DNA of 64,000 nucleotides from Thermodesulfobacteriota bacterium (GTDB taxonomy: Bacteria > Desulfobacterota_D > UBA1144 > Nemesobacterales > UBA2774). The notes under the pieces are model-generated. The model saw nothing but the letters and a program-made list of their open reading frames with translations. It ran no database searches and was not told where the DNA came from. A program made the position numbers and the translations under genes. Location of the stretch: positions 21,286 through 85,285 of the forward strand of contig DAOKYU010000009.1 of assembly GCA_035325995.1 (NCBI GenBank), written 5' to 3'. This document shows positions 1-23,048 of the stretch, one piece after another. Within the stretch, counting starts at the first letter, position 1. Each line of letters opens with the position of its first letter.

Positions 1-1209
1 TTCCTGCCAGACGCCGATCTCGAAGAGGCGGACCGGCTCCTGGTCGATCTGCTGGTGGGCAACATGACCTGTCCACAGGGGGATCGCTTTCTCATCCTTT
101 CCTGGCTCTCCTGTTTCCTGCTGATCGATTTTGCCGGGACGCGGCCCATGACCCGTTTCGAGGGTTCGGCCGGATCGGGCAAGACCACCGCCAGCAAGAT
201 CACGTCGACGCTTCTTTACGGCGAGCCCCAGCACAAGAAGGCCACCGATGCGGCGAACTACACCGACGGCTCGCAGAACCCGCTCATCGTCCTCGACAAC
301 ATCGAGGTCAAGCAGATGACCGAGGATCTGACCACCTTCATGCTGACCAGCATCACCGGCATCGCCAAGGAGAAACGCAAGAGCGGCACCGACAGCGAGA
401 CCATCACCGAGCGGACCAAATGCCTGCTGAACACCACCGGCATCGAGCCGCTGTGCGGGGAGCTTTCGGAGATCCTGTCGAGGTCCTTCGTCATCAACTT
501 CGACCTCGCCAACCAGGCAAGCGACTGCTTTCTGGAATCGGAGGTCATTTCCGCCATCCAGCAGAACCGGGACCTGATCATCTCGGCCATCATGAAGCGA
601 ACCAGTCATGTTCTGGCGATGATCCGGGACGGAGCCCAGAAGCAGGTCATGCGCCTGCTGCACCGAACCATGCCGACCCATGGCAAGCGCCGTTGCAACG
701 ATTATCTGAGCCTGATGTACCTGATGATGCTGGCCGGGTCCGAGGAACACGAGGTAACCACCGGACTCGAGGATCTGAGCCCGCTGTTCATCGAGCAGAT
801 CCATTCCATCAACGACACCAGTCAGGAGATGGCGCGGGAGTCGAACCCCATTGCCACGGCGCTGGCGTCGCTCTTCCATGCCTACCGGAATGCGGTGGAG
901 CTGGACGAGAAGGCCCGCTACGGCGAGGACGACCGGGCAAACCACGTCGTCGGGTTCATCGAACGCTACCAGGTGCGGTTCGAAAACGAGAACACCATGG
1001 AGCCGGTGTCGGCTGGACGGCTGCTCGCGGCGCTGCGCAGGGTTGGCCGGGAATTCAACCTCGAATTCGAATACAAAAAGCCCGCCCAGCTCGGTCGGCG
1101 CATCAGCAACGACCTGGACGTCATCCGGGACGCCGGGTTCGACATCGACCGGCAGCGCAACGCCCACACCAAAAACTTCGAGTACCGGATCGGTCGTAGA
1201 GGTGCTTAA
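1..1209 (+). CDS. C-terminal part of a P-loop NTPase of the phage/plasmid primase-helicase (SF3/VirE-like) type; the 5' end lies outside the window
   Basis: ORF open from window start. Walker A GSAGSGKTT, Walker-B-like LIVLDNIE. Location upstream of iteron array. Family assignment is inference. Confidence 0.4.
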   Translation, partial: FLPDADLEEADRLLVDLLVGNMTCPQGDRFLILSWLSCFLLIDFAGTRPMTRFEGSAGSGKTTASKITSTLLYGEPQHKKATDAANYTDGSQNPLIVLDNIEVKQMTEDLTTFMLTSITGIAKEKRKSGTDSETITERTKCLLNTTGIEPLCGELSEILSRSFVINFDLANQASDCFLESEVISAIQQNRDLIISAIMKRTSHVLAMIRDGAQKQVMRLLHRTMPTHGKRRCNDYLSLMYLMMLAGSEEHEVTTGLEDLSPLFIEQIHSINDTSQEMARESNPIATALASLFHAYRNAVELDEKARYGEDDRANHVVGFIERYQVRFENENTMEPVSAGRLLAALRRVGREFNLEFEYKKPAQLGRRISNDLDVIRDAGFDIDRQRNAHTKNFEYRIGRRGA

Positions 1210-1230
1210 CGAGAAATTTTCTCTTTTGGA

Positions 1231-1259
1231 TTGACTTTCGAGCCGCCTATGCCTATATT
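1231..1259 (+). promoter_or_regulatory. sigma70-like promoter (TTGACT-17 bp-TATATT) for the ATPase/RloB operon
   Basis: TTGACT at 1231-1236, TATATT at 1254-1259. AT-rich leader, AGGAGG RBS 8 nt before ATG 1303. Confidence 0.45.
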
Positions 1260-1302
1260 AAAGGCATGATAAAGCGAATATTTCACTTTAGGAGGCGGTA
1301 AG

Positions 1303-2649
1303 ATGATAGTCAGTTTCTCACTCGAAAACTGGATGTCCTTCCGCAACCAGGTCACATTTTCGATGGTCGCCAGCAGGGAGCGCCAGCATGGAGACAGGGT
1401 TCCCAAGCTCGGCAAGTACCAGACGAGAGTTCTTCCGGTTGCGGCAATTTATGGCGGCAACGCGTCGGGCAAGACCAATTTTTTCAAGGCCCTGAGTTTC
1501 GCCAAGGCGCTGGTCGTCAAGGGCACCCAGCCCGACAGCCTGATTCCTGTCGAGCCGTTCCGGCTGGACGCCAAGGTGGCTGATCAGCCGTCACGGTTTG
1601 GCTTCGAGCTGCTGATCGACGAGATCATTTACGAGTTCAGCTTCGCGGTGACCCGCAAGGCGGTTCTGGAAGAGAAGCTGGTGGCCATTACCAGCACCAG
1701 TGAAAAGGTGCTCTACCACCGTCGGGACGGAAAGCCCAACTTCGATGATTCCCTGGCCAAGGACCAGTTCCTCCAGTTCGCCTTCAAAGGGACCCGGGAC
1801 AACCAACTCTTTCTGACCAACTCGGTTTCCCAGAAGGTCGACAATTTCCGGCCGGTCTACGACTGGTTCAAGGACACGCTCGAGCTGGTCGCGCCCGATT
1901 CCCGCTTCGAACCTTTCGAGCAGTTCCTCGACGAGGGGCACCCGCTCTACTCGACCATGAACGAGATGCTGCCGCAGCTCGACACCGGCATCGCGCACCT
2001 GGGTGGTGAGGAGATCCCTTTCGAGAACATTCCGCTGCCCGAGCCACTGAAGACCAAGCTGCAGGAAGACGTCAAGGAAGGCATGACCGTTCGTCTGCTG
2101 ACCGAGCCGATCAACGAGCGATTTGTGGTGACCCGCAAAGGTGGTGAACTGATCGCCAAGAAGCTGGTGACCTATCATCCGAAGGCGGACGGCACGGAAG
2201 CCAAGTTCGAGATCCGCCAGGAGTCGGACGGCTCACAGCGGGTGATCGATCTGCTGCCCGCGTTTCTTGAGCTGTCGGCCCAGGTCTCGAAGAAGGTCTA
2301 CGTGATCGACGAGGTCGACCGCAGCCTGCACACGCTGCTGACACGCAGATTGCTCGAAGCGTACCTCGCCAATTGCTCCACGGAAACCAGAACGCAGTTA
2401 CTGTTGACCACCCATGACGTGCTGCTCATGGATCAGCAACTGCTGCGCCGTGACGAGATGTGGGTAGCCGAAAGAGACGCCACCGGAGCTTCGAACCTGC
2501 TCTCTTTCAGCGAGTACAAGGATGTCCGGTACGACAAGGACATTCGCAAGAGCTACCTGCAGGGACGACTGGGTGGAATTCCCCGGATTCTGTTGGGAGG
2601 CGCTTTGACCAATCCCTGCCTCACCGAAGAAAGTGAGGGGGATAACTGA
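1303..2649 (+). CDS. AAA/ABC-type ATPase (AAA_21-like), defense-associated partner of RloB
   Basis: Walker [10 protein letters not shown] near N-terminus. ABC-type signature/D-loop region [12 protein letters not shown] and H-loop LLTTHDV. 4-bp ATGA overlap with downstream RloB-like gene. Confidence 0.7.
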
Positions 2650-3245
2650 TGCCACCGAATAGACGCAGATTCCAGAGACCCCTTGGCGAGCGTCGCTACC
2701 GCAAACTGTTCGTGATCGCGGTGGAAGGCGTGAAGACCGAGCCGCAGTATTTCGCCATCTTCAATGACCAGCAATCGGTGATCCGGGTGAACTGCCTCAA
2801 AGGCAGCCACGATAGCTCCCCGCCGCAGGTACTGAAGCGGATGGAGGACCATCTCCGGCAGGAGGAGCTGAGATCCTCCGACGAAGCCTGGCTCGTGGTG
2901 GACAAGGATCAGTGGACCGACGAACAGTTGGACCAGCTTCATGCCTGGGCTCAGGCACGCGACAATTACGGCTTCGCCCTCAGCAACCCCAAGTTCGAAT
3001 ACTGGTTGCTGCTTCATTTCGAGGACGGCACCGGCATCGCATCGTCACGGGATTGCAGCGACCGGCTGAAGCGGCATCTTCCCGGTTACGACAAGGGGAT
3101 CGACGCACGCAAGATCACCCGCGACCGAATCGATGAAGCCATCCGCCGCGGCAGGCTGCGCGACAATCCTCCTTGTGCCGACTGGCCACGAGCCCTTGGC
3201 GGCACCACGGTTTACAAGCTGGTCGAAAACATTCTCCAGGTCTGA
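2649..3245 (+). CDS. RloB-like TOPRIM-domain protein (putative nuclease partner of the ATPase)
   Basis: VIAVEGVKTEPQYF (TOPRIM Glu), WLVVDKDQW (DxD), NPKFEYWLLLHFE motif typical of the RloB/OLD-TOPRIM family. Translationally coupled to upstream ATPase. Confidence 0.65.
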   Translation: MPPNRRRFQRPLGERRYRKLFVIAVEGVKTEPQYFAIFNDQQSVIRVNCLKGSHDSSPPQVLKRMEDHLRQEELRSSDEAWLVVDKDQWTDEQLDQLHAWAQARDNYGFALSNPKFEYWLLLHFEDGTGIASSRDCSDRLKRHLPGYDKGIDARKITRDRIDEAIRRGRLRDNPPCADWPRALGGTTVYKLVENILQV

Positions 3246-3273
3246 ACCTCAACCAATTCGATCCCCAATCATC

Positions 3274-3302
3274 CAGGACGCTCTCGGGCGTCCTTTTCTT
3301 TT
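3274..3302 (+). terminator. rho-independent terminator after the RloB gene
   Basis: AGGACGC-TCTCGG-GCGTCCT hairpin followed by TTTCTTTT. Confidence 0.5.
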
Positions 3303-3660
3303 GCGGTGGTGCGGTGATCACCGCTGTCCCTTGCGGTGGATGACCACCGCACGCCAAACCCTTGCCAGACAAGGCTTTCATGGCCTTTGCGGTGGTTGCG
3401 GTGGTAAATCCAGAGGTCTCACCCCCTATGGGCTGAAATATTTTTTCGACCCACCGATCCGGCATTCCTCGCCAGAGAAATTCCGGCCAAGCGTGAGAGA
3501 CATTCCCCAAATACCACCGCAACCACCGCACTCTCTCTTCTCTTTCTTCATAACTATCTAAAAACAAATAACAAACAAAGAACTACCCCCTGCGGTGGGA
3601 CAAGAAAATCTTCCACCGCACGACCACCGCAGCCACCGCAGATATCCACCGCAGCGGGTG
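3300..3660. repeat. Iteron-like array: at least 12 copies of octamer TGCGGTGG/CCACCGCA plus one TGCGGTGA variant, in both orientations, flanking a ~50-bp AT-rich block (3541-3590); includes 14-bp perfect palindrome GCGGTGATCACCGC (3311-3324)
   Basis: Forward copies at 3302, 3342, 3388, 3397, 3591, plus the variant at 3310. Reverse copies at 3354, 3515, 3524, 3613, 3624, 3634, 3648. Two more copies at 3814 and 3823 inside the next ORF. Region is essentially non-coding. Confidence 0.7.
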
Positions 3661-3735
3661 GTCACCGACGGTTTCAGGGCAGCTCCGGTAAGTAACGGGA
3701 AAAGCGATTAACCCGTATTTCTGGAGCGTGAAGCC

Positions 3736-4506
3736 ATGAGCCTTCTGAAAACCATGATCAAGCACACCGCCGGAGGGCAGGAAGCCTCGGCCGGATGTGA
3801 ACCCCCCTCATTACCACCGCAACCACCGCAACCCGCCATCTATGTCTCCACCGGGCTCGATATCCACGACATCAAGGACGCCCGCGATTGGCCTGAAGAC
3901 AGGGAGATCGACGGCACGCTGTGTCGCCGTCTGTCGCCTGAATACTTTGCCTGGCTACGTTCCCGCATGGTCACGGCCCAAGCCGCGCACAAGGCCGGAA
4001 AATTCCCCGACGATGCCTGGAACACGCTGCGGCAGCGATTCAACGCCCTGCAGGAGCTGGCCATCCGGGAGTTCGGCAAGGAACACCTCCAGGAGGTCCT
4101 GCAATCCTTTTCCCCGAAAAACTACCGGCCACCTGCGCTTCGTCCCGAGCCCCAGGAGAAACCCGTCGAAGTTCCCAGAAAGGACTGGATTTATCCCGGG
4201 AACCAAGCTTGGAAATGTAAGCAGCCGGTGACTTCCCAGGCTGTCGCCAAGGTCGACGCCATCCGTGAGGAGGCCATGGCCAAGGGCTGGTCCGAGGCAC
4301 GCCTCTATCAGAACCAGGGCCGGTTTCGGTTTCCCTGCGGCGAGGACTACGGCTTGGTCTGCTTCGTCGATGGCGATCAGGAGATTGGCGAGGTCACCGA
4401 ACGTTCTATCGAAATTATCCACGGGCCGAAGTCCGGGCGTCCCAGCACGCTGCGGTTCTACAACCCGGACGTGCCGCAGCCGTGGATGAAGAAATTGGAG
4501 GATTGA
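3736..4506 (+). CDS. hypothetical phage protein (N-terminal PPQPPQP tract is encoded by iteron copies)
   Basis: Long ORF downstream of the iteron region. No recognisable domain. Confidence 0.45.
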   Translation: MSLLKTMIKHTAGGQEASAGCEPPSLPPQPPQPAIYVSTGLDIHDIKDARDWPEDREIDGTLCRRLSPEYFAWLRSRMVTAQAAHKAGKFPDDAWNTLRQRFNALQELAIREFGKEHLQEVLQSFSPKNYRPPALRPEPQEKPVEVPRKDWIYPGNQAWKCKQPVTSQAVAKVDAIREEAMAKGWSEARLYQNQGRFRFPCGEDYGLVCFVDGDQEIGEVTERSIEIIHGPKSGRPSTLRFYNPDVPQPWMKKLED

Positions 4507-4509
4507 GCC

Positions 4510-4788
4510 GTGAAGAAAAAGAAACGCTACGCCAACGCCAAGGATGTCCTGCCCGAGGAACTGTTCGAGCAGATCCAGAAGCACTACACCGGGATTCTCT
4601 GGGTCCCGGCACCGAGCCGGTTTTACCAGGAGCGCCGCGATCTGGTGCTTGCCCTTCACCTGCAGGGGATCAGCAGCCAGGAGATCTCCAACCTCGCCGG
4701 AGTGACCACCCGCCGGGTCAATCAGATCATCGCCGCCGAACGAAAACAGGATCGGGACCGACAGTTGGCCATCGCTTCCGGTAAGTAA
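4510..4788 (+). CDS. small HTH DNA-binding protein, Mor/C-like (sigma70 region-4-like) candidate late-gene activator
   Basis: 92 aa, Lys-rich N-terminus, C-terminal HTH ISSQEISNLAGVTTRRVNQII. Its 3' end carries the first copy of the conserved late motif. Confidence 0.5.
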   Translation: MKKKKRYANAKDVLPEELFEQIQKHYTGILWVPAPSRFYQERRDLVLALHLQGISSQEISNLAGVTTRRVNQIIAAERKQDRDRQLAIASGK

Positions 4789-4792
4789 CCCC
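4756..4792 (+). promoter_or_regulatory. copy 1 of conserved late-module motif (..CCGACAGTTGGCCATCGCTTCCGGTAAGTAACC), overlapping the stop of the HTH gene
   Basis: Shares CCGACA..GCC..CGCTTCCGGTAAGTAACC with five intergenic copies downstream. Confidence 0.45.
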
Positions 4793-4879
4793 TGAACCGG
4801 CGGGAGCGCGTTTGGAGGCTAAATCGGCCTCCCGCCCCGCATCCCGGCTTGGGAAAACAATATTCGGCAGGATTTCCAC

Positions 4880-5380
4880 GTGGCACTGAACAAACCGGAC
4901 AAAGAAACGCTGGACCGCTGGCACCGCAACGAGGGCAAGACCGAACCGCCCCGGCGCGGGCCTGGTGCGCCCGAGGGCAACCAGAACCGGCTGCGCCACG
5001 GCATCTTTGCCGACCGCTGTCTGACGCCGGAAGAGAAGGTCATGTTCGACGCGATCATTGACCGCCTCAACCAGGACTTCGAGTTCAACAAGTCCAGCGA
5101 CTTCCTGCAGGTGGAGCTGGTCGGCGTCTACTCGGTGAAGCTGGTCCGCGCCCAGATCGAAGGGAACACCGACGCCGCCGAAAAGCTCGACCGGATGATC
5201 CGCTGCCACATGAAGGATCTCAAGACCACCAAGATCGCCCGCGAGGGTGAGGAGCCGAAAGGACTGCAGACCTCTCCGGCGGAATGGGCGGCGGCGCTGC
5301 TTGAGAAGGTGGCCGAGGCCACCAACGCCCCGGGCGCGAAACCCTCCGGCCGCAAGAAACGCGGAAAGAATTGCGGATAA
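4880..5380 (+). CDS. putative terminase small subunit-like protein
   Basis: GNQNRLRHGIF motif resembling the GNxNAxKHG motif of some TerS families; basic C-terminus. Position in the genome is atypical, so this is a weak call. Confidence 0.3.
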   Translation: MALNKPDKETLDRWHRNEGKTEPPRRGPGAPEGNQNRLRHGIFADRCLTPEEKVMFDAIIDRLNQDFEFNKSSDFLQVELVGVYSVKLVRAQIEGNTDAAEKLDRMIRCHMKDLKTTKIAREGEEPKGLQTSPAEWAAALLEKVAEATNAPGAKPSGRKKRGKNCG

Positions 5381-5576
5381 CACCATGGAGGGCTTTTCCG
5401 ATGACCCCGGCACACGGCGACTTGCGGCAGACTGCTTCACCAGGAATTGCGGATAAGACGTGTTCCTTGCACTTTCGGAATCGGCATTCTCCGGCTGCCG
5501 ATCATCATTTCCACTCCTCGATTTCTTCCTGCAGCTCTCGATATCCGCTTGGCATGTGTGCGCATAAGCCGAGCCG

Positions 5577-5779
5577 CATAACCCAAGTAGATATTGGCAT
5601 GTTCGCGCCGGAGCTCTCTCACACAACCCAAGTAAATATTGGCATGTCGAGCCCCAGGCAGAACCGGCCAAGCCCCGCAAACAGCCATTCCTTCGGCAGC
5701 GGCCCTCACATAAGCCAAGCAGATATTGCCATGTGTGTTCCGCGCCTGGAGCGCACAAGCCAAGCAGTTATAGCCATGT
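5577..5779. repeat. Four 26-bp direct repeats in two pairs, each pair 45 bp apart; candidate recombinase binding sites
   Basis: Repeat consensus CA(T/C)AA(C/G)CCAAG(T/C)A(G/A)(A/T)TAT(T/A)G(G/C)CATGT, copies at 5577-5602, 5622-5647, 5709-5734 and 5754-5779. Nearby at 5555-5568 is a GTGCGCATAAGCC dif-like XerC-arm. The array lies immediately 3' of the Xer-like recombinase gene. Confidence 0.65.
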
Positions 5780-5980
5780 GCGGCCGACAGACAGCGAAGG
5801 AGAAATTACGGTCAATCGATATTTCCCGCTCCGCCCGGGAGGAAGAGACCCTCCGTCATGATCATTCATCATCGGCGGATGTGTTCTTCTGCGGGCACTG
5901 TCATTCACTGTCTTCGACACTGTCTCGGCCAACGAAAACAGGAGCAGCCGAGGCCGCTCCCATCGTCGGGTCCGGAAGGA

Positions 5981-6895
5981 TCAGAGGCGTTCGAGGGCTT
6001 CCTCGAGCTGACCGTCCACGAGGTGGGTATAGATCTGGGTGGTGGACACGTCGCGATGTCCCAAGGCCCGCTGCACCACGAGCAGGTCATTGGTCGCGCC
6101 GTAGAGGTGGGTGGCGAAGGTGTGACGCAGCCCGTGCGGCGTCAGTTCCTTTTCGATCCCGGCTTTCCGCAGCCAGTGGGCGAGCCGGTTTGCAATCTGC
6201 CGCTGGCAGAGTCTGCCGTCCCGGTTCGACAGGAACAGGGCTTCCATTTCCGGGCGGCCGTGTCGACGACGCTCGGCCAGGTAACGGCGCAGCAATGTGC
6301 GGAGGTCGGTCTTGATGAACTTGACCTGCGGCACATTCCCCTTGGCCCGCACCCGCAGATGCTTGGCGTCGAGGTCGATGTCATCCATGTCGAGCGCGGC
6401 CAGCTCGCCAAGCCTGATCCCGGTGCCCAGCAGCACCTCGATCATGGCGCGGTCGCGCAGCGCGGAGAAGTCGGTCCGTCCCTTGAGTTCCTTGAGGAGC
6501 CGTTTCTTTTCGGCGGCGGTCAGGAACACCGGCAGTTTTCTCGGCAGCCGATGCATGCGGATGGACCGGGCCGGATTGTCATCGACCACGCCCGCCTCGA
6601 CAGCCCAGGCGAAAAAGGCTCGTACCGCAGCCTTCATCCGATGGAGCGAAGCCGCCGAGCGAGGGCCGCGCTCACTCTCGATAACCACCTCGGCGGAGAA
6701 CACCTGGTCGAGGAGCCCGGCCGTGACCGCCCGGCAGACGATGCCCGGGGTCAGCTTCCCGGCCACGCGGGCCACCAGGGCGAGGTCCCGGCGGTATGCG
6801 GCTATGGTCGCAGGGGAGCGTCCTTCGGCCGACAGGCGGGCACAGAACGCCTCCGTCGCGCCCGTCAGGTCGAGGTCAGCCGTTCGGTTGCTCAT
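5981..6895 (-). CDS. tyrosine site-specific recombinase, XerC/XerD-like
   Basis: N-terminal SAM-like core-binding domain, and C-terminal catalytic motifs HGLRHTFATHL, LGHRDVSTTQIYTHL (R..HxxR..Y). Confidence 0.8.
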   Translation of the reverse strand: MSNRTADLDLTGATEAFCARLSAEGRSPATIAAYRRDLALVARVAGKLTPGIVCRAVTAGLLDQVFSAEVVIESERGPRSAASLHRMKAAVRAFFAWAVEAGVVDDNPARSIRMHRLPRKLPVFLTAAEKKRLLKELKGRTDFSALRDRAMIEVLLGTGIRLGELAALDMDDIDLDAKHLRVRAKGNVPQVKFIKTDLRTLLRRYLAERRRHGRPEMEALFLSNRDGRLCQRQIANRLAHWLRKAGIEKELTPHGLRHTFATHLYGATNDLLVVQRALGHRDVSTTQIYTHLVDGQLEEALERL

Positions 6896-7250
6896 CGCTG
6901 GACTCCTTCACCCGGCTGTGGCCCATGGGTGTGCTCTTGGGCAGAGGCAGCTCCGCGATGCGCCCCGATTCCCTGGCCCAGACCATCATCATGCGGAACA
7001 CCCGGACGGTCTTGGCGACGGTGCGCTCGGCCCGCTCCTTGCCGTCGGGGAGTTTGAGCAGCAGGTCGGACTTGTAGAACTTGCCGACCTGGGGGAGCCG
7101 GATCTCGGCGAGCTGGCGATCCGCGCCGAAGAAGGCCTCGACCACGTCGAGGTCCTTCCTGTAGGTGTAAAGGGTCCGCTCTTTCTTTCCGGATTCCCGC
7201 AGGTGGCCGATGAAAGCCTCGGCGGCTTGATGCACGGTGCATTCGGTCAT
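6876..7250 (-). CDS. stand-alone integrase N-terminal SAM-like (core-binding) domain protein
   Basis: 124 aa, different frame from the recombinase, resembles only the N-terminal domain (TLYTYRKDLDVVEAFF). Possible remnant or accessory. Confidence 0.4.
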   Translation of the reverse strand: MTECTVHQAAEAFIGHLRESGKKERTLYTYRKDLDVVEAFFGADRQLAEIRLPQVGKFYKSDLLLKLPDGKERAERTVAKTVRVFRMMMVWARESGRIAELPLPKSTPMGHSRVKESSDEQPNG

Positions 7251-7283
7251 GTCGATGTCTCCTTTGTCGGTGGCCCGGTGTGT

Positions 7284-7478
7284 TCAGGACAGGAACTCGT
7301 CCAGCTCCCGCAGCAGTTCCTCGACGTGGCCGAGGGAGCCGACGCTCGCCCAGGTGATGTCCGTCTGCTTCGCGTCCGCTTCGAGCTTGCCGCGAATGCC
7401 CTCGATCAGCCGGGTGATGTTTTCCTGCTTTTCTCGGTACGCCTTGAGTGCCTGCTGGCGGTTTCTGTCGTAGGTCAT
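7284..7478 (-). CDS. small hypothetical protein
   Basis: 64-aa ORF from internal Met upstream of the recombinase genes. Weak call. Confidence 0.2.
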   Translation of the reverse strand: MTYDRNRQQALKAYREKQENITRLIEGIRGKLEADAKQTDITWASVGSLGHVEELLRELDEFLS

Positions 7479-7618
7479 GGCCTGCCTCCGGTTCCGGTTT
7501 TCTTGGATGCGGGACCATCCCGCGTCACATCCAATGACGCTTCTATTTCGTTGGAAATCAAGTGCTTGCAGAGATCTTTCTGCATGTGCCCCAAACCCAT
7601 AAACCAAAGGAGATCAAC

Positions 7619-7891
7619 ATGTTGAAGAAGACCCTCGAATGGACCATCCCGCTGGTCCTGGCCGGGATCATGACCGGCTGCGCCACCTACCGGCCTCCGG
7701 CCCAGATCCAGTCGGCGGTGGCCACCGTCAACCGCCACACGCCCGAGTATGTGACCGAGGCCAACAAGGCGCTGCGCGAGGTCGGCCACCCGGACGCCGA
7801 GCGCCTGACCGGTGTCGGCCTGCGCCTGCAGACCGCCGTGGACGCCCTTGACCAATGGGCCAACGGCTCGAACCAGGAGGCAGGCCAATGA
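7619..7891 (+). CDS. small lipoprotein (signal peptide + lipobox)
   Basis: AAAGGAG RBS. N-terminus MLKKTLEWTIPLVLAGIMTGC matches signal peptide followed by lipobox Cys. Confidence 0.5.
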   Translation: MLKKTLEWTIPLVLAGIMTGCATYRPPAQIQSAVATVNRHTPEYVTEANKALREVGHPDAERLTGVGLRLQTAVDALDQWANGSNQEAGQ

Positions 7892-8166
7892 AAGAGATCC
7901 TTCAGGAAAACAGCGATGCCGTCCGCCAGGCCGGTGAGGCCCTGGTCGAAATCGGCACCGAGCTGGCGGCGGGACGGATCGAGAACGCCCTCGGCCGTCT
8001 GGAAGCGGCCCAGCAGCAGTACCTGGCCTGGGCGGAGTTGGACCAGGCCATCATCGACATTCAGGAAGCTGTCCACGACCGGAAGAACACCCTGGCCGTG
8101 CAGCAGATCCTGACGGAACTGGTGGGCACCATCCTCGGAAACGCCTTGAGGACAGGAATGCATTGA
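7888..8166 (+). CDS. small hypothetical phage protein
   Basis: GGAGG RBS. ATGA-coupled to lipoprotein gene and stop overlaps TerL start. Confidence 0.4.
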   Translation: MKEILQENSDAVRQAGEALVEIGTELAAGRIENALGRLEAAQQQYLAWAELDQAIIDIQEAVHDRKNTLAVQQILTELVGTILGNALRTGMH

Positions 8167-9689
8167 TGGCGGTAACCGACAAGGAGCGCAAACTCGCGGC
8201 GACCCTGAGCGATCCCGTGTTGTGGGGGCAAGCCTACCTCTACAACCGGGATGGCTCAGGCCGCGACTACTGGCCGCACCAGGTGGAGGACCTGCGCTGC
8301 CCTGCCAAGAACATCATCCACCTCGACGGCCGGGACGTGGGCAAGTCCATCGTGCTCTCGACCGACGCGCTCCATTACGCCTTCACCACCCGAGGCGGCC
8401 AGGGCCTCATCGCGGCTCCGCACCAGGGGCACCTTGATACCATCATCGAGGAGATCGAGTTCCAGCTCGACACCAACCCGGATCTGATGAACAGCATCGC
8501 CCTGACCAAGTACGGCAAGCCCAAGATCCACCGCAAACCCTACTTCCGGCTGGAGTTCACCAACGGTTCGGTGCTCTATTTCCGCCCGGCCGGGGCTTAT
8601 GGCGACGCCTTCCGGTCCCTGCACGTGAGCCGCGTCTGGGTCGATGAAGGAGCCTGGCTGACCGAGCGTGCCTGGAAGGCGCTGCGCCAGTGCCTCAAGG
8701 CCGGGGGGACGCTACGCATCTACTCCACGCCCAACGGCCTGCGCGACACCACCTATTACCGGCTCACCTCGTCGGATCAGTTCCATGTGTTCCGCTGGCC
8801 GTCCTGGCTCAATCCCCTGTGGACCGAGGAGCGCGAGGCCGAACTGCTGGAGTTCTACGGCGGCCGCGACAGCTCCGGCTGGCAACACGAGGTGGCCGGT
8901 GAACACGGCAAGCCCTCCTATGGGGCCTTCAATGTCGAGCAGTTCAACCTCTGTCGGCAGGATCTGCTGGAGTATCAGAAGATCGTCATCACCGATTCCG
9001 AGCTGCGCGACTGCGACACCGAGGAAGCGGCCCACGACCGGCTGGAGATGCTGCTCAACCTCACGCCCCGCAGCGGGCAGTTCTGGATCGGTGGCGACCT
9101 GGGCTACACCAACGACCCCACCGAGATCGTCGTATTCCAGGAGACGGAGATCGGCGAGCGGACGCTGCTGAAGATGATCCTGCGCGTGCATCTTGAACAC
9201 GTTTCCTATCCGCACATCGCCCAGATCATCGCGCTGCTGGAGCGTTACTACACCCCGGCGGGCATCGGCGTGGACAATGGCGGCAACGGTCTGGCCGTGG
9301 TTCAGGAGCTGCTCACCCTGGACAAGTACAAGGGGCTTGAGTTGGAAGGCAGGCTCAAAGGATACGATTTCGGCGGCATGACCCGGCTGGCGGTCCGCGA
9401 CGGCAAGGAAGTCAAGAAGCGCACCAAGGAGCTGATGACCAGCCTCATCAACGGAGCCCTGCAGCGCAAGCAGGTCATTTTCCCCTCGGACGACCTGGAA
9501 GTGGAAGACCAGTTCACCACCCACACCTACACCCTGCGGGACGGCAAGATCATCTATTCCAAGGGCAACGACCACATCATCGACGCGGTCCGCTGTGCCA
9601 TGCTGATCCGGGAAGAAGGCAACCTCGACCCGGTCGGCGAAGAGGTGGTTTCGCTCAAGCCCGTGCTCACCAATCCGGTCTTCATCTGA
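8166..9689 (+). CDS. terminase large subunit
   Basis: N-terminal ATPase (HLDGRDVGKS Walker-A-like). C-terminal RNaseH-like nuclease with GGDLGYTNDPTEIVVF ... DHIIDAVRCA. Position before portal. Confidence 0.75.
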   Translation: MAVTDKERKLAATLSDPVLWGQAYLYNRDGSGRDYWPHQVEDLRCPAKNIIHLDGRDVGKSIVLSTDALHYAFTTRGGQGLIAAPHQGHLDTIIEEIEFQLDTNPDLMNSIALTKYGKPKIHRKPYFRLEFTNGSVLYFRPAGAYGDAFRSLHVSRVWVDEGAWLTERAWKALRQCLKAGGTLRIYSTPNGLRDTTYYRLTSSDQFHVFRWPSWLNPLWTEEREAELLEFYGGRDSSGWQHEVAGEHGKPSYGAFNVEQFNLCRQDLLEYQKIVITDSELRDCDTEEAAHDRLEMLLNLTPRSGQFWIGGDLGYTNDPTEIVVFQETEIGERTLLKMILRVHLEHVSYPHIAQIIALLERYYTPAGIGVDNGGNGLAVVQELLTLDKYKGLELEGRLKGYDFGGMTRLAVRDGKEVKKRTKELMTSLINGALQRKQVIFPSDDLEVEDQFTTHTYTLRDGKIIYSKGNDHIIDAVRCAMLIREEGNLDPVGEEVVSLKPVLTNPVFI

Positions 9690-9693
9690 TCGC

Positions 9694-9732
9694 ATCCTCC
9701 GACGCTTTCCACCCCGCTCCGGTAAGTAACCG
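9694..9732 (+). promoter_or_regulatory. copy 2 of conserved late-module motif (CCTCCGAC..CTCCGGTAAGTAACC) upstream of portal
   Basis: Intergenic, 33 bp upstream of the portal ORF. Confidence 0.5.
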
Positions 9733-9764
9733 GCATCGAGCCGGGTTCGGCCCACACGGGCCGG

Positions 9765-11312
9765 ATGTGCGGCTGTCATGGCCGAAACTACCGAGAGGAT
9801 CACGTGGAAAGCACTGCCCATCAGGACGACCAACCCGAAAGCCTGGACACCACCGGCTTTGTCATCGCGCCGCTGGCCGCAGCGGCCGCGCTCGACTCGG
9901 CCGCCTTCAGCAAGGTCAACGCCACCGAAGCGATTCCGGCCACCTGGGAAGAACGCGCCCGCAAGGCCTGGGAATACTACGTCGAGGAGCCGTTGGTGAA
10001 GAACTGCGTCAACTCCTGGCGCACCTTCGCCGTGGGCGACGAGATCAAGATCACCAGCGATGACGAGACCCTTAAGGAGCAGGCCCTGGAGGCCGCCTGG
10101 CGGTTGAACATCACGCAGTTCATCAAGGACATGGTTCTTCAACTCCTGGTGAAAGGCGACGCCATCGGCTTCAAGCGCTTTACCAAGTCCGGCCAGGACA
10201 TCGAGGAACTGGTCTGCGTCAACCCGGTTTCGGTCAAGGTTAAATACGCCCAGGGCGAACTGATCGAGGCCCGGCAATTTCCCGAGGACACCCCCGGCGG
10301 CGGGGAATCCATCCCGCTGCCCGTCGAGCAGGTGGTCCACCTCAAATGGGACGCACCGGCCTTCTCGCCCCGGGGTAACTCCCTCGTGCTTCCCGCTTTT
10401 CAAGCCATCGAACTGCTGCGCGACTACCGCCGGGCCGAACAGGCCATCGCCAAACGCTGGGCCACGCCGTTTCGCCTGCTCAAGGTGGGCGGCGCGTTCG
10501 GCCAGAAGATGGTGATGCCGGACCAGCGGATGCTCGAACAGGTTCGCGACATGGTCAACAAGATGGACATGAAAAGCGGCCTGGTGGTCCCGTTCTACGT
10601 CAATGTCGAAACCCACGGCACCGACGGCCAGGTCCTCAACGTCGAGGACAAGGTCAAGGAGGTGAAGGAAGACATCGTGGTGGCCCTGGGTCTGTCACGC
10701 TCGCTGGTGACCGGCGATGGCCCTAATTTCGCCACCGCCTCGGTGAGCATGCAGAAGATGATGGTCATGATCCGCGAGATCAAACAGGCCGCACGCAAGC
10801 TCCTCGACTGGGTGTTCGATGACTGGATGGAGCTGAACGGCCACGGCGACAAAAGCATCCAGTTCATCTTCAACGACCTCGACCCCAGCGACGCGGTCGA
10901 TTTCAAGAAGCTCCTCATCGAACTCTACGACCGCAAACTCATCAGCCGCTCCAGCCTTCAGCTCAAGATGGACCTGGACCCGGACATCGAGGCTGCCAAC
11001 CGCGAGACAGAACGTAAGCAGATCGACCTGATGGACGAGAAACAGGTGAAGCCGGTGGTGGATATGGTCGTCTCCGGCATCCTGAGCGTGCCTCGCGCCC
11101 GGAAGATGCTCGGGATTCCGGCCGAGGACAATGAACCCACGGCGGAGGCTGCATTGGTCTGGTCGGGCGACCTGGAGTCCACCGGCGATGCGGCCGTGTG
11201 CGACGAGTGCAGCCACTTCATCGCTGACACCAACCACTGCCGGGTCCACAACAGCGAGCGCACTTTCGACGCCCCGGCCTGTCGTTTCATCGACCGTCGG
11301 GAGCCCCGCTGA
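9765..11312 (+). CDS. portal protein
   Basis: 515-aa ORF immediately after TerL and before MuF-like head protein. Start uncertain, with alternative GTG at 9804 after a GAGAGG RBS-like hexamer (9794-9799). Confidence 0.65.
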   Translation: MCGCHGRNYREDHVESTAHQDDQPESLDTTGFVIAPLAAAAALDSAAFSKVNATEAIPATWEERARKAWEYYVEEPLVKNCVNSWRTFAVGDEIKITSDDETLKEQALEAAWRLNITQFIKDMVLQLLVKGDAIGFKRFTKSGQDIEELVCVNPVSVKVKYAQGELIEARQFPEDTPGGGESIPLPVEQVVHLKWDAPAFSPRGNSLVLPAFQAIELLRDYRRAEQAIAKRWATPFRLLKVGGAFGQKMVMPDQRMLEQVRDMVNKMDMKSGLVVPFYVNVETHGTDGQVLNVEDKVKEVKEDIVVALGLSRSLVTGDGPNFATASVSMQKMMVMIREIKQAARKLLDWVFDDWMELNGHGDKSIQFIFNDLDPSDAVDFKKLLIELYDRKLISRSSLQLKMDLDPDIEAANRETERKQIDLMDEKQVKPVVDMVVSGILSVPRARKMLGIPAEDNEPTAEAALVWSGDLESTGDAAVCDECSHFIADTNHCRVHNSERTFDAPACRFIDRREPR

Positions 11313-16810: not shown

Positions 16811-16863
16811 CTGAACGCTCCCCGCAGGTCGCGGAGAGCACAGCAAACTGACCGGAGACGTTG

Positions 16864-19260: not shown

Positions 19261-19272
19261 GGAGGAAACACC

Positions 19273-19635
19273 ATGTCATTCATCAATCCGTGTCACCGCA
19301 GCCTCGCCTATGGCGACGGCCACATCCAGGGCGACGGCCAGCTTGGCCAGGTGGTCCGCGTGGTCGGCGACGACCTGTTCGCCGTCAACACCGATCCCAC
19401 CAAGCGTTCCTTCGGCATCCTGATCAAGGACTACGCCGGTGGCGAAATGCCCGGTATCTACTGCGATGGCGGCGTCTACGAGACCGACGCCTTCGAAGGG
19501 ACCGTCGTCGCCGGAGACGACCTGAAAGTTTCGGCGGGCGGTCGCCTGACCAACGGTGTCGCGGCCGGAGAGCACGTGGTCGCCCACGCCATTTCCGTAC
19601 AGAGCGGCGTCCTCAAATTTCGACTGCTCGTCTAA
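19273..19635 (+). CDS. small beta-rich head-associated protein (DUF2190-like) adjacent to capsid gene
   Basis: 120 aa, Gly/Val-rich, position immediately before major capsid gene. Confidence 0.45.
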   Translation: MSFINPCHRSLAYGDGHIQGDGQLGQVVRVVGDDLFAVNTDPTKRSFGILIKDYAGGEMPGIYCDGGVYETDAFEGTVVAGDDLKVSAGGRLTNGVAAGEHVVAHAISVQSGVLKFRLLV

Positions 19636-19653
19636 CCCAAGGAGCCAACGCAC

Positions 19654-20517
19654 ATGAAAACCAATCAGTTGAAGATCCACTCCCAGGAGTACATGGAAAC
19701 CATGGCGCGGCTCATGAGCGAGGCTCTCGAGTCGCCCGAAGGCATGCGGGCGCTTGCCGCCGCCATTGCCGCGCCCATCGAACAGGAGATCAAGCGCAAG
19801 GAGATCTCCTCGCTGCTGCTCACCAAGCACACGCTGCCCAAGGGCGAACGTCCGGTTTACCAGAAGAAACCGACCGTCAAGGCCCACTGGATCAGCAAGG
19901 ACGGCGACGCCCAGGAGCAGGAGGTGGGCAAGGACGAAGTCGAGTTCCCCACCAATCGCATCCACTCCAATCCGATGGTGGACGTGTCCGTCCTCAAGAA
20001 CGGCAACATCGGCACGCTGATGGACATCCAGACCAGCGCAGCCGACGCCATCCGCAAGGAGATGGACCGCCGCACCATCTCGGTGCTCTCCTCGGCCATC
20101 CCGGCGACCAACACCATCGAGGTCACCGGCGACCTGCTCACCGAAGAGGCGCTGAACGAAGCCATCTCGATCATCGAGGACCTGGAGCTGTCGGTGAAGT
20201 ACATCGTCATGCGCGGCCGCCGGTTCAACGACATGCGCGGCTGGAACCTCGATCCCCAGACCAAGCTCGAGCTGCGCCAGAAGGGTGTCATCAAGAACTA
20301 CGGCACCGGCGGCATTCTGCTGACCGCCTCCATGCCGCTGGACGAGATCATCATCGTCCCGGATGAAGAGGTCGGAAAGATGCCGGTGCGCGAAAACCTG
20401 AAGACGGAGTCCATCGATCAGAAGACCCGCTTCAAGACCGGCTGGCTGGTGTGGTCCGAGATCGGTCAGGGCATTACCCGCCCTGACATCATGGCCAAGG
20501 TCAAACTGGTTCCGTAA
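19654..20517 (+). CDS. major capsid protein
   Basis: 287 aa following protease/scaffold and decoration-like gene. Strong RBS. Confidence 0.65.
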   Translation: MKTNQLKIHSQEYMETMARLMSEALESPEGMRALAAAIAAPIEQEIKRKEISSLLLTKHTLPKGERPVYQKKPTVKAHWISKDGDAQEQEVGKDEVEFPTNRIHSNPMVDVSVLKNGNIGTLMDIQTSAADAIRKEMDRRTISVLSSAIPATNTIEVTGDLLTEEALNEAISIIEDLELSVKYIVMRGRRFNDMRGWNLDPQTKLELRQKGVIKNYGTGGILLTASMPLDEIIIVPDEEVGKMPVRENLKTESIDQKTRFKTGWLVWSEIGQGITRPDIMAKVKLVP

Positions 20518-20536
20518 TCTTAGGAGGTGACGTGAG

Positions 20537-20896
20537 ATGAATCGAATCAAGAACATCCGTCCCGGCGTTCTGGTGATCCCCGACGCCGGGCTGAAACTCA
20601 AGCCCGGCCAGGTGGTCGAGGTGGAACGCCTCACCAAGCAGATCCAGGCAGCACTCAAGAATGGCCGCCTGGCCATGGCCGACAAACCGAAGCAGGAACC
20701 GCTCGCCCCTCCAGAGCCCGATCAGGACGCGGAACCGGTGGACCTGAGCAAGCTCTCCGCCACCGACGCCATCTCCAGGGTCAACGAGGAAGCCAATCCG
20801 GAAACCCTTAAGGGCTACATGGAAACTGAAAAACGCCGCACGGTGATCGACGCGCTCAAGAGCCGTCTGGAGGGCCTGCAAGGTGCTGCTGAGTGA
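20537..20896 (+). CDS. hypothetical head-associated protein
   Basis: ORF with RBS GGAGGTGA. Confidence 0.4.
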   Translation: MNRIKNIRPGVLVIPDAGLKLKPGQVVEVERLTKQIQAALKNGRLAMADKPKQEPLAPPEPDQDAEPVDLSKLSATDAISRVNEEANPETLKGYMETEKRRTVIDALKSRLEGLQGAAE

Positions 20897-23046: not shown

Positions 23047-23048
23047 CC

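What the first reader, a model, noticed from the sequence alone, without database searches (positions are those of the whole stretch)
3300..3830. Iteron array with AT-rich core: candidate plasmid-type origin next to a primase-like gene
At least 12 copies of TGCGGTGG/CCACCGCA (plus a TGCGGTGA variant) in both orientations, including a perfect 14-bp palindrome, flank a 50-bp AT-rich block. This is the classic iteron-plus-DNA-unwinding-element layout. The array lies downstream of a primase/helicase-like gene. Together with an internal (not terminal) Xer-like recombinase, it suggests the element may replicate as a phage-plasmid rather than only as an integrated prophage.
Basis: partly seen in the sequence, partly recalled or inferred. 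Interest (0 to 1): 0.6.

Follow-up and report, generated by a model that had tools for sequence, protein, structure and literature searches.

The report
Prophage replication origin with primase-matched iterons
This is a real cluster of short protein-binding repeats around an AT-rich core, most likely the replication origin of an integrated prophage and read by the tail end of the neighbouring primase; it is a well-known kind of origin, not evidence for a phage-plasmid.

Summary
There are 14 exact TGCGGTGG/CCACCGCA copies plus 2 variants in window 3302-3830. Only 3.8 are expected in the whole 64 kb window. They flank the most AT-rich 50 bp of the first 55 kb.

Relatives from 130 loci carry the same array immediately after the primase gene, with the same site order, orientation, spacing and AT-rich block. 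The octamer itself differs: at least 10 versions exist. Each version goes with its own sequence at the tip of a beta-hairpin in the primase's C-terminal winged-helix-like domain. No other neighbouring protein tracks the octamer.

Two close relatives (95% identical primase C-terminal regions) differ by KRY/NHR in that tip. Their arrays differ by TA/CC at about 10 sites, while the spacers are conserved.

My best reading is a phage origin bound by its own DnaG-type primase/P-loop/winged-helix protein. It works like phage P4 alpha with ori/crr, or SaPI Rep with its ori, but shows no sequence relationship to either.

The phage-plasmid idea is not supported. Relatives sit inside megabase chromosomes, there are no close plasmid relatives, and I found no par genes or Xer-like recombinase among the ORFs scanned.

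In this window an AbiL defence pair is inserted between the primase gene and the origin.

The parts
1..1209 (+). C-terminal 402 aa of a ~1100-aa DnaG-type primase fusion, cut by the window start. The fragment holds a P-loop NTPase region (GSAGSGKTT), a helical region and a C-terminal winged-helix-like domain.
   Evidence: phrog_47 DNA primase, E 1.4e-205. Full-length relatives carry Zn_ribbon_DnaG + DNAG_N + Toprim + a weak AAA_23 hit and TIGR01391 dnaG. Translation.
1012..1197 (+). Winged-helix-like domain of the primase (fragment aa 338-399): three helices followed by a beta-hairpin wing.
   Evidence: AlphaFold2 model m9dcd48d2f0c9, mean pLDDT 89.3, elements H56-69, H79-88, H90-95, E98-104, E111-117. 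The best Foldseek matches are winged-helix DNA-binding domains (IRF4, ORC1/Cdc6) and C-termini of phage helicases and primases, but all are weak (E >= 0.02).
1159..1176 (+). Tip of the beta-hairpin (NAHTKN, fragment aa 387-392). This is the proposed determinant of octamer specificity.
   Evidence: It is the only segment near the array that tracks the octamer type. In L024 versus L026 the tip reads KRY versus NHR while the 400-aa C-terminal region is 95% identical.
1303..3245 (+). AbiLi (1303-2649) and AbiLii/RloB (2649-3245) defence gene pair. This is cargo inserted between the primase gene and the origin; it is not part of the origin.
   Evidence: Pfam AAA_21 2e-48 and RloB 2e-38. PADLOC AbiLi 1.8e-76 and AbiLii 2.4e-23. 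The pair is absent from 59 relatives, in which the array directly follows the primase gene.
3275..3299 (+). Terminator-like hairpin plus T-run at the end of the cargo, just before the first iteron.
   Evidence: Consensus scan only.
3302..3351 (.). Iteron module 1. Sites at 3302(+), 3310(+, variant TGCGGTGA), 3318(-, variant), 3332(+) and 3344(-). It contains the 14-bp palindrome at 3311-3324 and the head-to-head pair TGCGGTGG-ATGA-CCACCGCA.
   Evidence: The equivalent head-to-head palindrome is present in the other octamer types, for example TGCGAAGGGTACCCTTCGCA.
3388..3404 (+). Iteron module 2: a tandem pair, TGCGGTGG T TGCGGTGG.
   Evidence: A tandem pair sits at the same offset (+77 to +105) in most of the 14 representative arrays; in L086 and L078 only one of the two copies matches exactly.
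3409..3502 (.). Central spacer of about 110 bp. It holds two conserved non-iteron blocks (TCCAGAGGTCTCACCCCCT at 3409-3427, and CCAAGCGTGAGAGACA at 3487-3502) and an A/T run. Its role is unknown.
   Evidence: The blocks are conserved across octamer types in alignment A3.
3514..3530 (-). Iteron module 3: a tandem pair in inverted orientation (CCACCGCA A CCACCGCA), abutting the AT-rich block.
3531..3590 (.). AT-rich block: a pyrimidine tract followed by an A-rich tract. This is the proposed DNA-unwinding element.
   Evidence: GC is 0.24-0.32, the lowest in window 1-55000. The equivalent block is at or near the most AT-rich 40 bp of each of 14 related loci (fraction of windows as low: <= 0.002) and sits in the second half of every array, at offsets +169 to +290.
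3591..3653 (.). Iteron module 4: sites at 3591(+), 3613(-), 3624(-), 3633(-) and 3646(-).
3684..3701 (+). TCCGGTAAGTAACGGGAA, a late-promoter-like motif. It is adjacent to the origin but probably not part of it.
   Evidence: It recurs at 9718 (before the portal gene) and 37620 (before the baseplate gene). There are 3 matches at <= 3 mismatches against 0.03 expected. It is conserved upstream of the ORF256 homologue across octamer types.
3814..3830 (-). Two further exact octamers inside ORF256 (3736-4506), encoding PPQPPQ. They are seen only in the close clade. Whether they act as binding sites is unknown.
   Evidence: They are absent from L077, a more distant relative with the same octamer.

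Best explanation
The array at window 3302-3653 is the prophage's replication origin.

- Binding sites. Its TGCGGTGG octamers are binding sites (iterons) for the C-terminal winged-helix-like domain of the phage's own ~1100-aa protein. That protein is a DnaG-type primase fused to a P-loop NTPase region and this domain; its last 402 aa are window 1-1209.
- Specificity. The tip of the domain's beta-hairpin (NAHTKN) sets which octamer is read.
- Assembly and melting. Copies of the protein bind the inverted iteron pairs on both sides of the AT-rich block (modules 3 and 4). They probably assemble as oligomers through the P-loop region and open the AT-rich DNA.
- Priming and elongation. The protein's own primase domain lays down primers there. 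The RecD2-like helicase, SSB-like and recombination proteins encoded just upstream in relatives, together with host polymerase, do the rest.
- Upstream modules. The palindrome and tandem pair (modules 1 and 2) are likely auxiliary sites, comparable to P4 crr.

Shown: the sites are real, clustered, non-coding, conserved in architecture, and co-vary with the hairpin.
Inferred: direct binding, melting, and origin function.
For: 1. Enrichment. There are 14 exact octamers in 529 bp, against 3.8 expected in the whole 64 kb.

2. Conserved architecture. Fourteen representative arrays share one plan despite different octamers: a head-to-head pair, then a tandem pair, then a spacer of roughly 110-135 bp, then an inverted tandem pair, then the AT-rich block, then a final inverted set. 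A few copies are missing or shifted in individual arrays.

3. The octamer changes with the primase hairpin:
- TGCGGTGG goes with N(A/T)HTKN.
- GTAGAAAG goes with KRYGTK, in three different backgrounds.
- GCCGAAAG goes with NHRG, NRNG or DHKG.
- ACCGAAAG goes with DCHG.
- TGCGAAGG goes with SxSxRRTA.
- GGCGGGTG goes with NKKQKSW.
- GTTAGAGG goes with RRANxR.
- GTGAAAGG goes with HAHRVR and the like.

4. Control for relatedness. Among pairs whose remaining C-terminal 330 aa are >= 90% identical, hairpin identity is 0.94 for same-octamer pairs and 0.50 for different-octamer pairs. At 80-90% it is 0.79 versus 0.48. The hairpin is the top-scoring 14-aa window of the primase, with a delta of 0.53 against a median of 0.10.

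5. Closest contrast. L025 and L026 keep the spacer sequence but switch octamer positions 2-3 from TA to CC at about 10 sites. Their primases differ mainly in the last 20 residues.

6. Other proteins are excluded.
- The HTH and TerS-like proteins are 98-99% identical between TGCGGTGG and GCCGAAAG elements.
- ORF256 is nearly identical between L077 (TGCGGTGG) and L117 (GCCGAAGG).
- Ten upstream protein segments (nine upstream proteins plus the primase N-terminal part) show no tracking segment. The one apparent hit, the AAA_24 tail, is identical across different octamer types.

7. The covarying residues map to the tip of a confidently modelled hairpin (pLDDT 89) in a helix-helix-helix-hairpin domain.

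8. The AT-rich block is the most AT-rich spot of the phage region and is conserved in position.

9. The array sits at the 3' end of a complete replication module: PD-(D/E)XK nuclease, AAA_24, DUF669, ERCC4, RecD2-like helicase, primase.

10. A 32%-identical homologue on plasmid NC_020305 is likewise followed by 8 copies of GGTGCARG and an AT-rich block.

11. Precedent. SaPI Rep proteins bind iterons immediately downstream of rep through a C-terminal winged-helix domain, with an AT-rich centre and opposed iterons on each side (PMC9371898). P4 alpha is a DnaG-type primase plus SF3 helicase plus winged-helix protein (PMC2777425).
Against: - No experiment or read-coverage data shows that replication initiates here.
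- The winged-helix assignment rests on topology and weak Foldseek matches (best E 0.02-0.2).
- No sequence similarity to the P4 alpha origin-binding domain, SaPI Rep or any PDB chain was found.
- The P-loop region could not be classified as a helicase. Pfam gives only a weak AAA_23 hit, and the AlphaFold model of that part is poor (pLDDT < 50).
- The array and the primase 3' end are physically linked, so part of the covariation could be hitch-hiking. The pairs in the analysis are also not phylogenetically independent.
- The hairpin-to-octamer relation is not one-to-one: three different tips go with GCCGAAAG.
- GC skew is uninformative, falling monotonically across the window.
- The array lies directly upstream of the packaging and late genes, which is where a pac site or a late regulatory region could also lie.
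Confidence: 0.7

Rival explanations
1. The array is a packaging (pac/cos) recognition site. The repeats bind the small terminase or another packaging protein, and cleavage occurs in the spacer between the repeat sets, as at phage P1 pac (from my own knowledge of that system).
For: The array lies immediately upstream of the late/packaging block: ORF256, an HTH protein, a TerS-like protein at 4880-5380, and TerL at 8163-9689. Repeat sets flanking a central region of about 110 bp resemble known pac sites.
Against: The TerS-like and HTH proteins are 98-99% identical between elements with different octamers, for example the window versus L028/L029. ORF256 is nearly identical between L077 and L117, which have unrelated octamers. 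Recombination breakpoints separate the array from the late genes but never from the primase 3' end. The only covarying protein segment is in the primase.
Confidence: 0.07
2. The array is mainly a transcriptional control region. The primase C-terminal domain, or another factor, bound at the octamers gates the late promoter-like motif at 3684-3701 and so couples late gene expression to replication, without the array being the initiation site itself.
For: Module 4 ends about 30 bp before the motif TCCGGTAAGTAACGGGAA. That motif recurs before two other late operons and is conserved at this position across octamer types.
Against: The other two copies of the motif, at 9718 and 37620, have no octamers nearby. 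An extreme AT-rich block flanked by opposed iterons, conserved in position, is not needed for an operator. The array stays attached to the primase module, not to the late module, in mosaics. This role could coexist with origin function.
Confidence: 0.1
3. This is the first reader's reading: a plasmid-type origin that lets the element persist as an extrachromosomal phage-plasmid.
For: The iteron-plus-AT-rich layout is shared with iteron plasmids. A distant homologue with its own array lies on a 36.7-kb plasmid, NC_020305.
Against: Near-identical elements are embedded in complete chromosomes and megabase contigs of many hosts. No DNA match was found in PLSDB. No ParA/ParB or plasmid Rep was found among the ORFs scanned. 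The array has no DnaA or IHF boxes. The NC_020305 plasmid has its own Rep and ParA.
Confidence: 0.04
4. The repeats are a chance or compositional feature, or the repeats of a real coding gene.
For: ORFs of 142-150 aa overlap the array in the window (3133-3561 on the plus strand, 3115-3567 on the minus strand). The genome has high GC content.
Against: None of 100 shuffles reaches the observed count. No frame stays open across the array in relatives; in L127 every frame is <= 48 aa. The alignment is full of indels. The octamer differs between relatives while positions and orientations are kept.
Confidence: 0.01

Closest known systems
SaPI (Staphylococcus aureus pathogenicity island) Rep / PriRep and the SaPI ori
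   Same: The initiator reads short iterons through a C-terminal winged-helix domain. There are 6-12 iterons immediately downstream of the initiator gene, an AT-rich region near the centre, and at least two iterons on each side pointing in opposite directions. Specificities differ between related elements, and in SaPI5 the primase and Rep are fused (PMC9371898). All of these layout features are seen here.
   Different: There is no detectable sequence similarity to any solved structure, SaPI Reps included. The sites here are octamers rather than penta- or hexamers. The protein is a ~1100-aa DnaG-type (CHC2 zinc ribbon + Toprim) fusion whose P-loop region I could not classify. The host element is a full-size temperate myovirus of anaerobic and sediment bacteria, not a satellite. 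A separate RecD2-like helicase is encoded next to it. There are extra upstream modules and a conserved non-iteron spacer of about 110 bp.
Bacteriophage P4 alpha protein with ori and crr
   Same: One polypeptide combines a DnaG-type primase, an NTPase region and a C-terminal winged-helix DNA-binding domain (PMC2777425). From my own knowledge, not tested here: P4 alpha binds octameric type I iterons (TGTTCACC) in ori and in crr, and crr lies just downstream of the alpha gene.
   Different: No Pfam D5_N or SF3-helicase hit was found, and there is no sequence match to the P4 origin-binding domain 1KA8. Here there is a single composite array rather than two loci 4.5 kb apart. No second octamer cluster exists within the window, or within the 10 kb on each side of the primase C-terminal segment held for relatives.
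Iteron plasmids (pSC101, RK2, F, P1 type): Rep initiator, iterons, DnaA boxes, AT-rich DUE
   Same: Clustered iterons next to an AT-rich unwinding element, with specificity differing between related replicons (PMC4980987 is a review).
   Different: There are no DnaA or IHF boxes in the array. The putative initiator is a primase fusion, not a Rep. The iterons occur in both orientations, as palindromes and inverted sets, rather than as one direct-repeat run. The element is integrated in chromosomes.

Membership tests
Iteron-type origin (general: repeated initiator sites plus AT-rich DUE plus cognate initiator gene nearby) | Several copies of one short sequence clustered in non-coding DNA | tested here: met
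   14 exact and 2 variant octamers in 3302-3830, against 3.8 expected per 64 kb. No conserved ORF crosses the array.
Iteron-type origin (general) | AT-rich unwinding element flanked by or next to the iterons | tested here: met
   3525-3593 has GC 0.24-0.32 and is unique in window 1-55000. An equally extreme AT-rich block sits at offsets +169 to +290 in all 14 related arrays.
Iteron-type origin (general) | A cognate initiator whose specificity matches the iterons | tested here: met
   The primase hairpin tip co-varies with the octamer across at least 10 types, including after a control for overall relatedness. Other proteins are excluded. This is covariation, not a binding assay.
Iteron-type origin (general) | Supports initiation of replication (autonomous replication, melting, marker-frequency peak) | not testable with these tools
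   Needs cloning, induction sequencing, or in vitro melting and binding assays.
Plasmid iteron origin (Rep/DnaA-dependent) | DnaA boxes and/or IHF site in the origin | tested here: not met
   No TTWTNCACA or WATCAANNNNTTR at <= 1 mismatch in 3246-3735.
Plasmid iteron origin (Rep/DnaA-dependent) | The element is an extrachromosomal replicon with partition genes | tested here: not met
   Relatives lie inside chromosomes. There is no PLSDB DNA match. No ParA/ParB was found among the scanned ORFs; not every small ORF was scanned.
P4 alpha-type primase-helicase initiator | N-terminal DnaG-type/Toprim primase domain | tested here: met
   Zn_ribbon_DnaG, DNAG_N and Toprim_2 in full-length relatives L017, L040 and L044. 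TIGR01391 dnaG, 3.5e-27. This part lies outside the window.
P4 alpha-type primase-helicase initiator | Central superfamily-3 (D5-like) helicase domain | tested here: inconclusive
   A Walker A motif (GSAGSGKTT) is present, but Pfam gives only a weak AAA_23 hit and no D5_N or SF3 family. The AlphaFold model of this part is unreliable (pLDDT < 50).
P4 alpha-type primase-helicase initiator | C-terminal winged-helix origin-binding domain homologous to 1KA8 | tested here: inconclusive
SaPI Rep-ori system | Iterons immediately 3' of the initiator ORF, an AT-rich centre, and opposed iterons on each side | tested here: met
   The array starts < 400 bp after the primase stop codon in 59 loci. In the window, 3514(-) and 3523(-) lie left of the AT block, and 3591(+) plus four (-) sites lie right of it.
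SaPI Rep-ori system | Sequence homology of the initiator to SaPI Rep/PriRep | tested here: not met
   Neither the phmmer search nor the profile search of all PDB sequences, which include the SaPI Rep structures cited in PMC9371898, gave a relevant hit.

The most novel reading that the evidence does not exclude
In this prophage lineage a six-residue tip of a winged-helix 'wing', rather than the recognition helix, sets recognition of an 8-bp site. The lineage has re-targeted its origin at least ten times by rewriting all 10-14 sites of an otherwise fixed scaffold in concert with that tip. Intermediates are still visible: one leftover old-type site in L026 and one new-type site in L025. The drive may be the frequent co-residence of sister prophages in one chromosome, so that each keeps a private origin and avoids cross-activation or hijacking.
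Probability: 0.3. Interest if true: 0.6.

Novelty: new member of a known kind. Interest (0 to 1): 0.4.

Why it matters
It pins down the probable origin and initiator of an unstudied group of prophages, copies of which about 96% identical to this window lie in genomes from several classes and phyla of anaerobic and sediment bacteria. It also gives a ready-made natural table pairing at least 10 octamers with hairpin sequences. That table could be used to test how a winged-helix wing encodes DNA specificity, and to build orthogonal origin/initiator pairs. On the practical side, it corrects the phage-plasmid idea and shows that the gap between primase and origin is a hot spot for defence-gene cargo.

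Tried and rejected
- Phage database. Megablast and tblastn against 50,697 phage records found no relative of the region or the primase. The methyltransferase found only remote hits. No named phage relative can therefore be given.
- PDB sequence searches. A single-sequence search and a profile search gave only spurious hits (OxyR, tropomyosin).
- Structure of the whole 402-aa fragment. The P-loop part came out at pLDDT < 50, so I did not use it.
- Rfam on 3100-3900. Only a sub-threshold istR match, taken as chance.
- Sigma-70 promoter scan. No hit in 3200-3800.
- DnaA and IHF boxes. None found.
- Literature search for the octamer. Only unrelated primer sequences. A search for the host combination found nothing relevant.
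- GC skew. It falls monotonically across the window because all genes are on one strand, so it says nothing about an origin.
- ORF256 as the binding protein. An automated scan flagged its N-terminal low-complexity segment. That signal comes from the PPQPPQ-coding octamers of the TGCGGTGG clade. The segment is unchanged in the closest contrasts, and ORF256 is shared between unrelated octamer types, so I rejected it.
- AAA_24 C-terminal tail. Also flagged by the scan, but it is identical across different octamer types, so I rejected it.
Not found in any ORF I scanned. I did not scan every small ORF.
Full report

Yes. TGCGGTGG occurs 18 times in the window on both strands. Dinucleotide-preserving shuffles give 3.82 on average (largest 9), and none of 100 reaches 18. 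Fourteen copies fall in 3302-3830.

The variant TGCGGTGA (3310) and its inverted partner form the perfect palindrome GCGGTGATCACCGC at 3311-3324. The AT-rich block is also real. GC drops to 0.24-0.32 in 3525-3593, and this is the only 50-bp stretch that low in window 1-55000, where the mean is 0.63.

Twelve exact copies are intergenic. Two (3814-3830) lie inside the next gene and encode PPQPPQ.

**2. Context**

The window begins inside a gene whose last 402 aa match phrog_47 'DNA primase' (E 1e-205). Full-length relatives are about 1100 aa. They carry a CHC2 zinc ribbon, the DnaG catalytic core and Toprim, then a P-loop region and a C-terminal part with no Pfam family.

Downstream of the primase gene, in order:
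- an AbiLi/AbiLii (AAA_21 + RloB) defence pair at 1303-3245;
- the array;
- an unknown 256-aa ORF at 3736-4506;
- a small HTH protein, a weak TerS-like protein, TerL and portal;
- a contractile-tail module.

Upstream of the primase in relatives lies a full replication/recombination module: a sigma-like protein, PD-(D/E)XK nuclease, AAA_24, DUF669, ERCC4 and a RecD2-like helicase. The array therefore sits at the junction between the replication module and the late genes.

**3. Related loci**

Scans seeded with the primase C-terminal region returned 51 viral contigs and 80 genome loci.

All close relatives (96-100% primase identity) that have enough downstream sequence keep the TGCGGTGG array. 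In 59 loci the array starts less than 400 bp after the primase stop codon. In the others, 0.65-3.2 kb of variable sequence is inserted between the primase gene and the array; where I annotated it, it encodes cargo genes.

More distant relatives (55-77% identity) have an array in the same place built from a different octamer. The versions seen are GTAGAAAG, GCCGAAAG, ACCGAAAG, TGCGAAGG, GCCGAAGG, TGCGGAGG, TGGGAAGG, GGCGGGTG, GCGGGGGT, GTTAGAGG and GTGAAAGG.

Site order, orientation and spacing follow one plan in 14 representatives:
- a head-to-head pair at about 0/+12, often a perfect 20-bp palindrome;
- a tandem pair at about +80/+88;
- a spacer of roughly 110-135 bp holding two conserved non-iteron blocks;
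- an inverted tandem pair at about +205/+213;
- an AT-rich block of about 50 bp;
- a final set of sites in opposed orientations.

A few copies are missing or shifted in individual arrays.

In each locus the AT-rich block is at or near the most AT-rich 40 bp. No reading frame is conserved across the array.

**4. Which protein reads the octamers?**

Mosaicism among the loci allows a genetic-style exclusion.
- The HTH and TerS-like proteins are 98-99% identical between the window (TGCGGTGG) and L028/L029 (GCCGAAAG).
- ORF256 is nearly identical between L077 (TGCGGTGG) and L117 (GCCGAAGG). Its N-terminus is unchanged between L024 (GTAGAAAG) and L026 (GCCGAAAG).
- Ten upstream protein segments (nine upstream proteins plus the primase N-terminal part) show no segment that tracks the octamer. 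The one apparent signal, the low-complexity AAA_24 tail, is identical across octamer types.

The last ~20 residues of the primase behave differently. Every octamer type has its own sequence there, and the same octamer in divergent backgrounds keeps a similar sequence. For example, KRYGTK goes with GTAGAAAG in three backgrounds, and N(A/T)HTKN goes with TGCGGTGG even at 75% overall identity.

I controlled for relatedness using the identity of the remaining C-terminal 330 aa:

| Identity of the rest | Hairpin identity, same octamer | Hairpin identity, different octamer |
|---|---|---|
| >= 0.9 | 0.94 | 0.50 |
| 0.8-0.9 | 0.79 | 0.48 |
| 0.7-0.8 | 0.72 | 0.44 |

. The hairpin is the best-scoring 14-residue window of the protein.

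The closest contrast is the most telling. The L025 and L026 primase C-terminal regions are about 95% identical, with differences concentrated in the last 20 residues; in the hairpin tip, KRY becomes NHR. Their arrays align base for base in the spacers. At about 10 sites, octamer positions 2-3 read TA in one and CC in the other. Each array also retains one site of the other type.

**5. Structure**

An AlphaFold2 model of the last 120 aa has mean pLDDT 89. It shows three helices followed by a two-stranded hairpin. The covarying residues (window aa N387-N392, nt 1159-1176) form the hairpin tip.

Foldseek finds only weak matches. The top ones are winged-helix DNA-binding domains (IRF4, archaeal and yeast ORC1/Cdc6) and the C-termini of phage helicases and primases. 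I therefore call the domain 'winged-helix-like' and treat the fold as supported but not proven.

Sequence searches of all PDB chains find nothing, including the P4 alpha origin-binding domain and the SaPI Reps. The P-loop part could not be modelled reliably, so I cannot say whether it is a helicase.

**6. Mechanism**

The best-supported reading is an origin of replication recognised by the phage's own primase fusion through the hairpin of its C-terminal domain. [quoted passage not shown]

This matches what is described for the SaPIs: a C-terminal winged-helix domain, 6-12 iterons immediately downstream of rep, an AT-rich centre, opposed iterons on each side, and element-specific specificities (PMC9371898). 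It also matches the domain logic of P4 alpha (PMC2777425).

- Shown here: the sites, their conservation, and the covariation.
- Inferred: binding, melting and initiation.

The absence of DnaA and IHF boxes fits a self-sufficient phage or satellite type of origin rather than a classical plasmid one.

A 32%-identical homologue on a Desulfocapsa sulfexigens plasmid is also followed by 8 copies of GGTGCARG and an AT-rich block. The gene-array association therefore extends well beyond this lineage.

**7. Rivals**

- **Pac site.** This is the most natural alternative given the position just before the packaging genes. However, none of the packaging-side proteins tracks the octamer, and recombination separates the array from them but not from the primase.
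- **Regulatory role.** The motif TCCGGTAAGTAACGGGAA at 3684-3701 recurs before the portal and baseplate operons and is probably a late promoter element. A role for the array in controlling it cannot be excluded and could coexist with origin function. The other two copies of the motif have no octamers nearby.
- **Chance or coding repeats.** Excluded.

**8. The phage-plasmid idea**

Elements about 96% identical at the DNA level to window 1-12000 lie inside complete chromosomes and megabase contigs. Examples are Syntrophus buswellii, Desulfosarcina alkanivorans, Desulfocarbo, Desulforhopalus, Desulfobulbus and Ectothiorhodospira, plus several MAGs. There is no DNA match in PLSDB. I found no partition genes, plasmid Rep or tyrosine recombinase in the ORFs scanned. 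The element is an integrated prophage, and the origin most likely serves lytic replication after induction.

**9. Novelty and score**

The kind of system is known: an iteron origin next to, and read by, a primase-type initiator with a C-terminal DNA-binding domain. This protein family and its origin have not, as far as I could find, been described, and they share no detectable sequence similarity with the known examples. I file it as a new member of a known kind.

The added value is the unusually clean natural series of at least 10 matched octamer/hairpin pairs on a fixed scaffold. Interest is 0.4.

Noticed in passing
window 1-12000; L052-L072: The element is about 96% identical at the DNA level (92% for one MAG) to copies in genomes of very different hosts. 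Isolates include Desulfocarbo, Syntrophus, Desulfosarcina, Desulforhopalus, Desulfobulbus (Thermodesulfobacteriota and relatives) and Ectothiorhodospira shaposhnikovii DSM 243 (Gammaproteobacteria). MAGs carrying it are labelled Verrucomicrobiota, Hydrogenedentales, Acidobacteriota and Anaerolineales. Some MAG labels may reflect mis-binning, but the isolates alone span two phyla. This is an unusually wide distribution for a near-identical temperate myovirus.
   Followed up: partly
window 1210-3300; the same gap in L023, L024, L025, L032, L034, L078, L089, L123: The gap between the primase stop codon and the first iteron is a cargo hot spot. It is empty in 59 loci. Elsewhere it holds AbiLi/AbiLii pairs (this window), a 503-aa ABC-type ATPase, Fic-domain proteins on the opposite strand, a PLD/NgoFVII-like nuclease, or unknown ORFs.
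   Followed up: partly
window 3684-3701, 9718-9735, 37620-37637: The motif TCCGGTAAGTAAC(G/C)GG occurs three times (0.03 expected), each time just upstream of a late gene block: ORF256, portal, baseplate wedge. It is conserved before the ORF256 homologue in distant relatives. It is probably the late promoter, possibly for the phage's own sigma-like factor seen upstream in relatives.
   Followed up: partly
window 49756-62063: A defence island resembling a methylation-associated defence system (MADS). It comprises a MAD1-type HTH protein (49756-50640), a small AAA protein, a 1245-aa DUF6079 protein (51162-54899), a 948-aa N6/N4 methyltransferase, and AAA_15/AAA_21 ATPases. From 55 kb, GC drops to 43-51% against 62% elsewhere.
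   Followed up: no
window 47489-49763: Adjacent Amidoligase_2 and GATase_6 genes lie after the tail genes. I did not pursue their role.
   Followed up: no
L061/L099; L078/L080; L116/L119/L127; L073/L077: Several genomes carry two or three related elements close together, 48-150 kb apart on one chromosome. In the informative pairs their octamers differ (TGCGGTGG with TGCGAAGG; GCGGGGGT with TGCGGTGG). One contig (L046/L051) carries two elements with the same octamer. This may bear on why origin specificity diversifies.
   Followed up: partly
L025:13090-13310 and L026:11540-11700: Each of two closely related arrays retains one site of the other's type: a CTTTCTAC in the GCCGAAAG array and a CTTTCGGC in the GTAGAAAG array. 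These look like intermediates of a specificity switch, or traces of recombination.
   Followed up: no
window 3409-3427 and 3487-3502: Two non-iteron blocks in the central spacer (TCCAGAGGTCTCACCCCCT followed by an A/T run, and CCAAGCGTGAGAGACA) are conserved across all octamer types. No Rfam family, sigma-70 promoter, DnaA box or IHF box matches. Their role is unexplained.
   Followed up: partly
L132 (NC_020305.1) 18533-23115: On a 36.7-kb Desulfocapsa sulfexigens plasmid, a 992-aa CHC2 primase homologue is followed by a GGTGCARG array with an AT-rich block, and then by a tyrosine recombinase. The plasmid also has its own Rep and ParA. The primase-array-integrase unit might be a separate mobile island.
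   Followed up: partly
L073, L076, L079, L130, L122, L118, L125, L126, L128: Some more distant primase homologues, mostly in Acidobacteriota/Bryobacterales and Armatimonadota MAGs, have no detectable octamer cluster anywhere in the 10-21 kb held for each locus. They may be decayed elements, or the array may be displaced by large cargo, as in L129 where it lies 8 kb downstream.
   Followed up: partly
window 16861-19260: A 799-aa DNA methyltransferase (phrog_27806, full-length match) is embedded among the head and tail genes.
   Followed up: no
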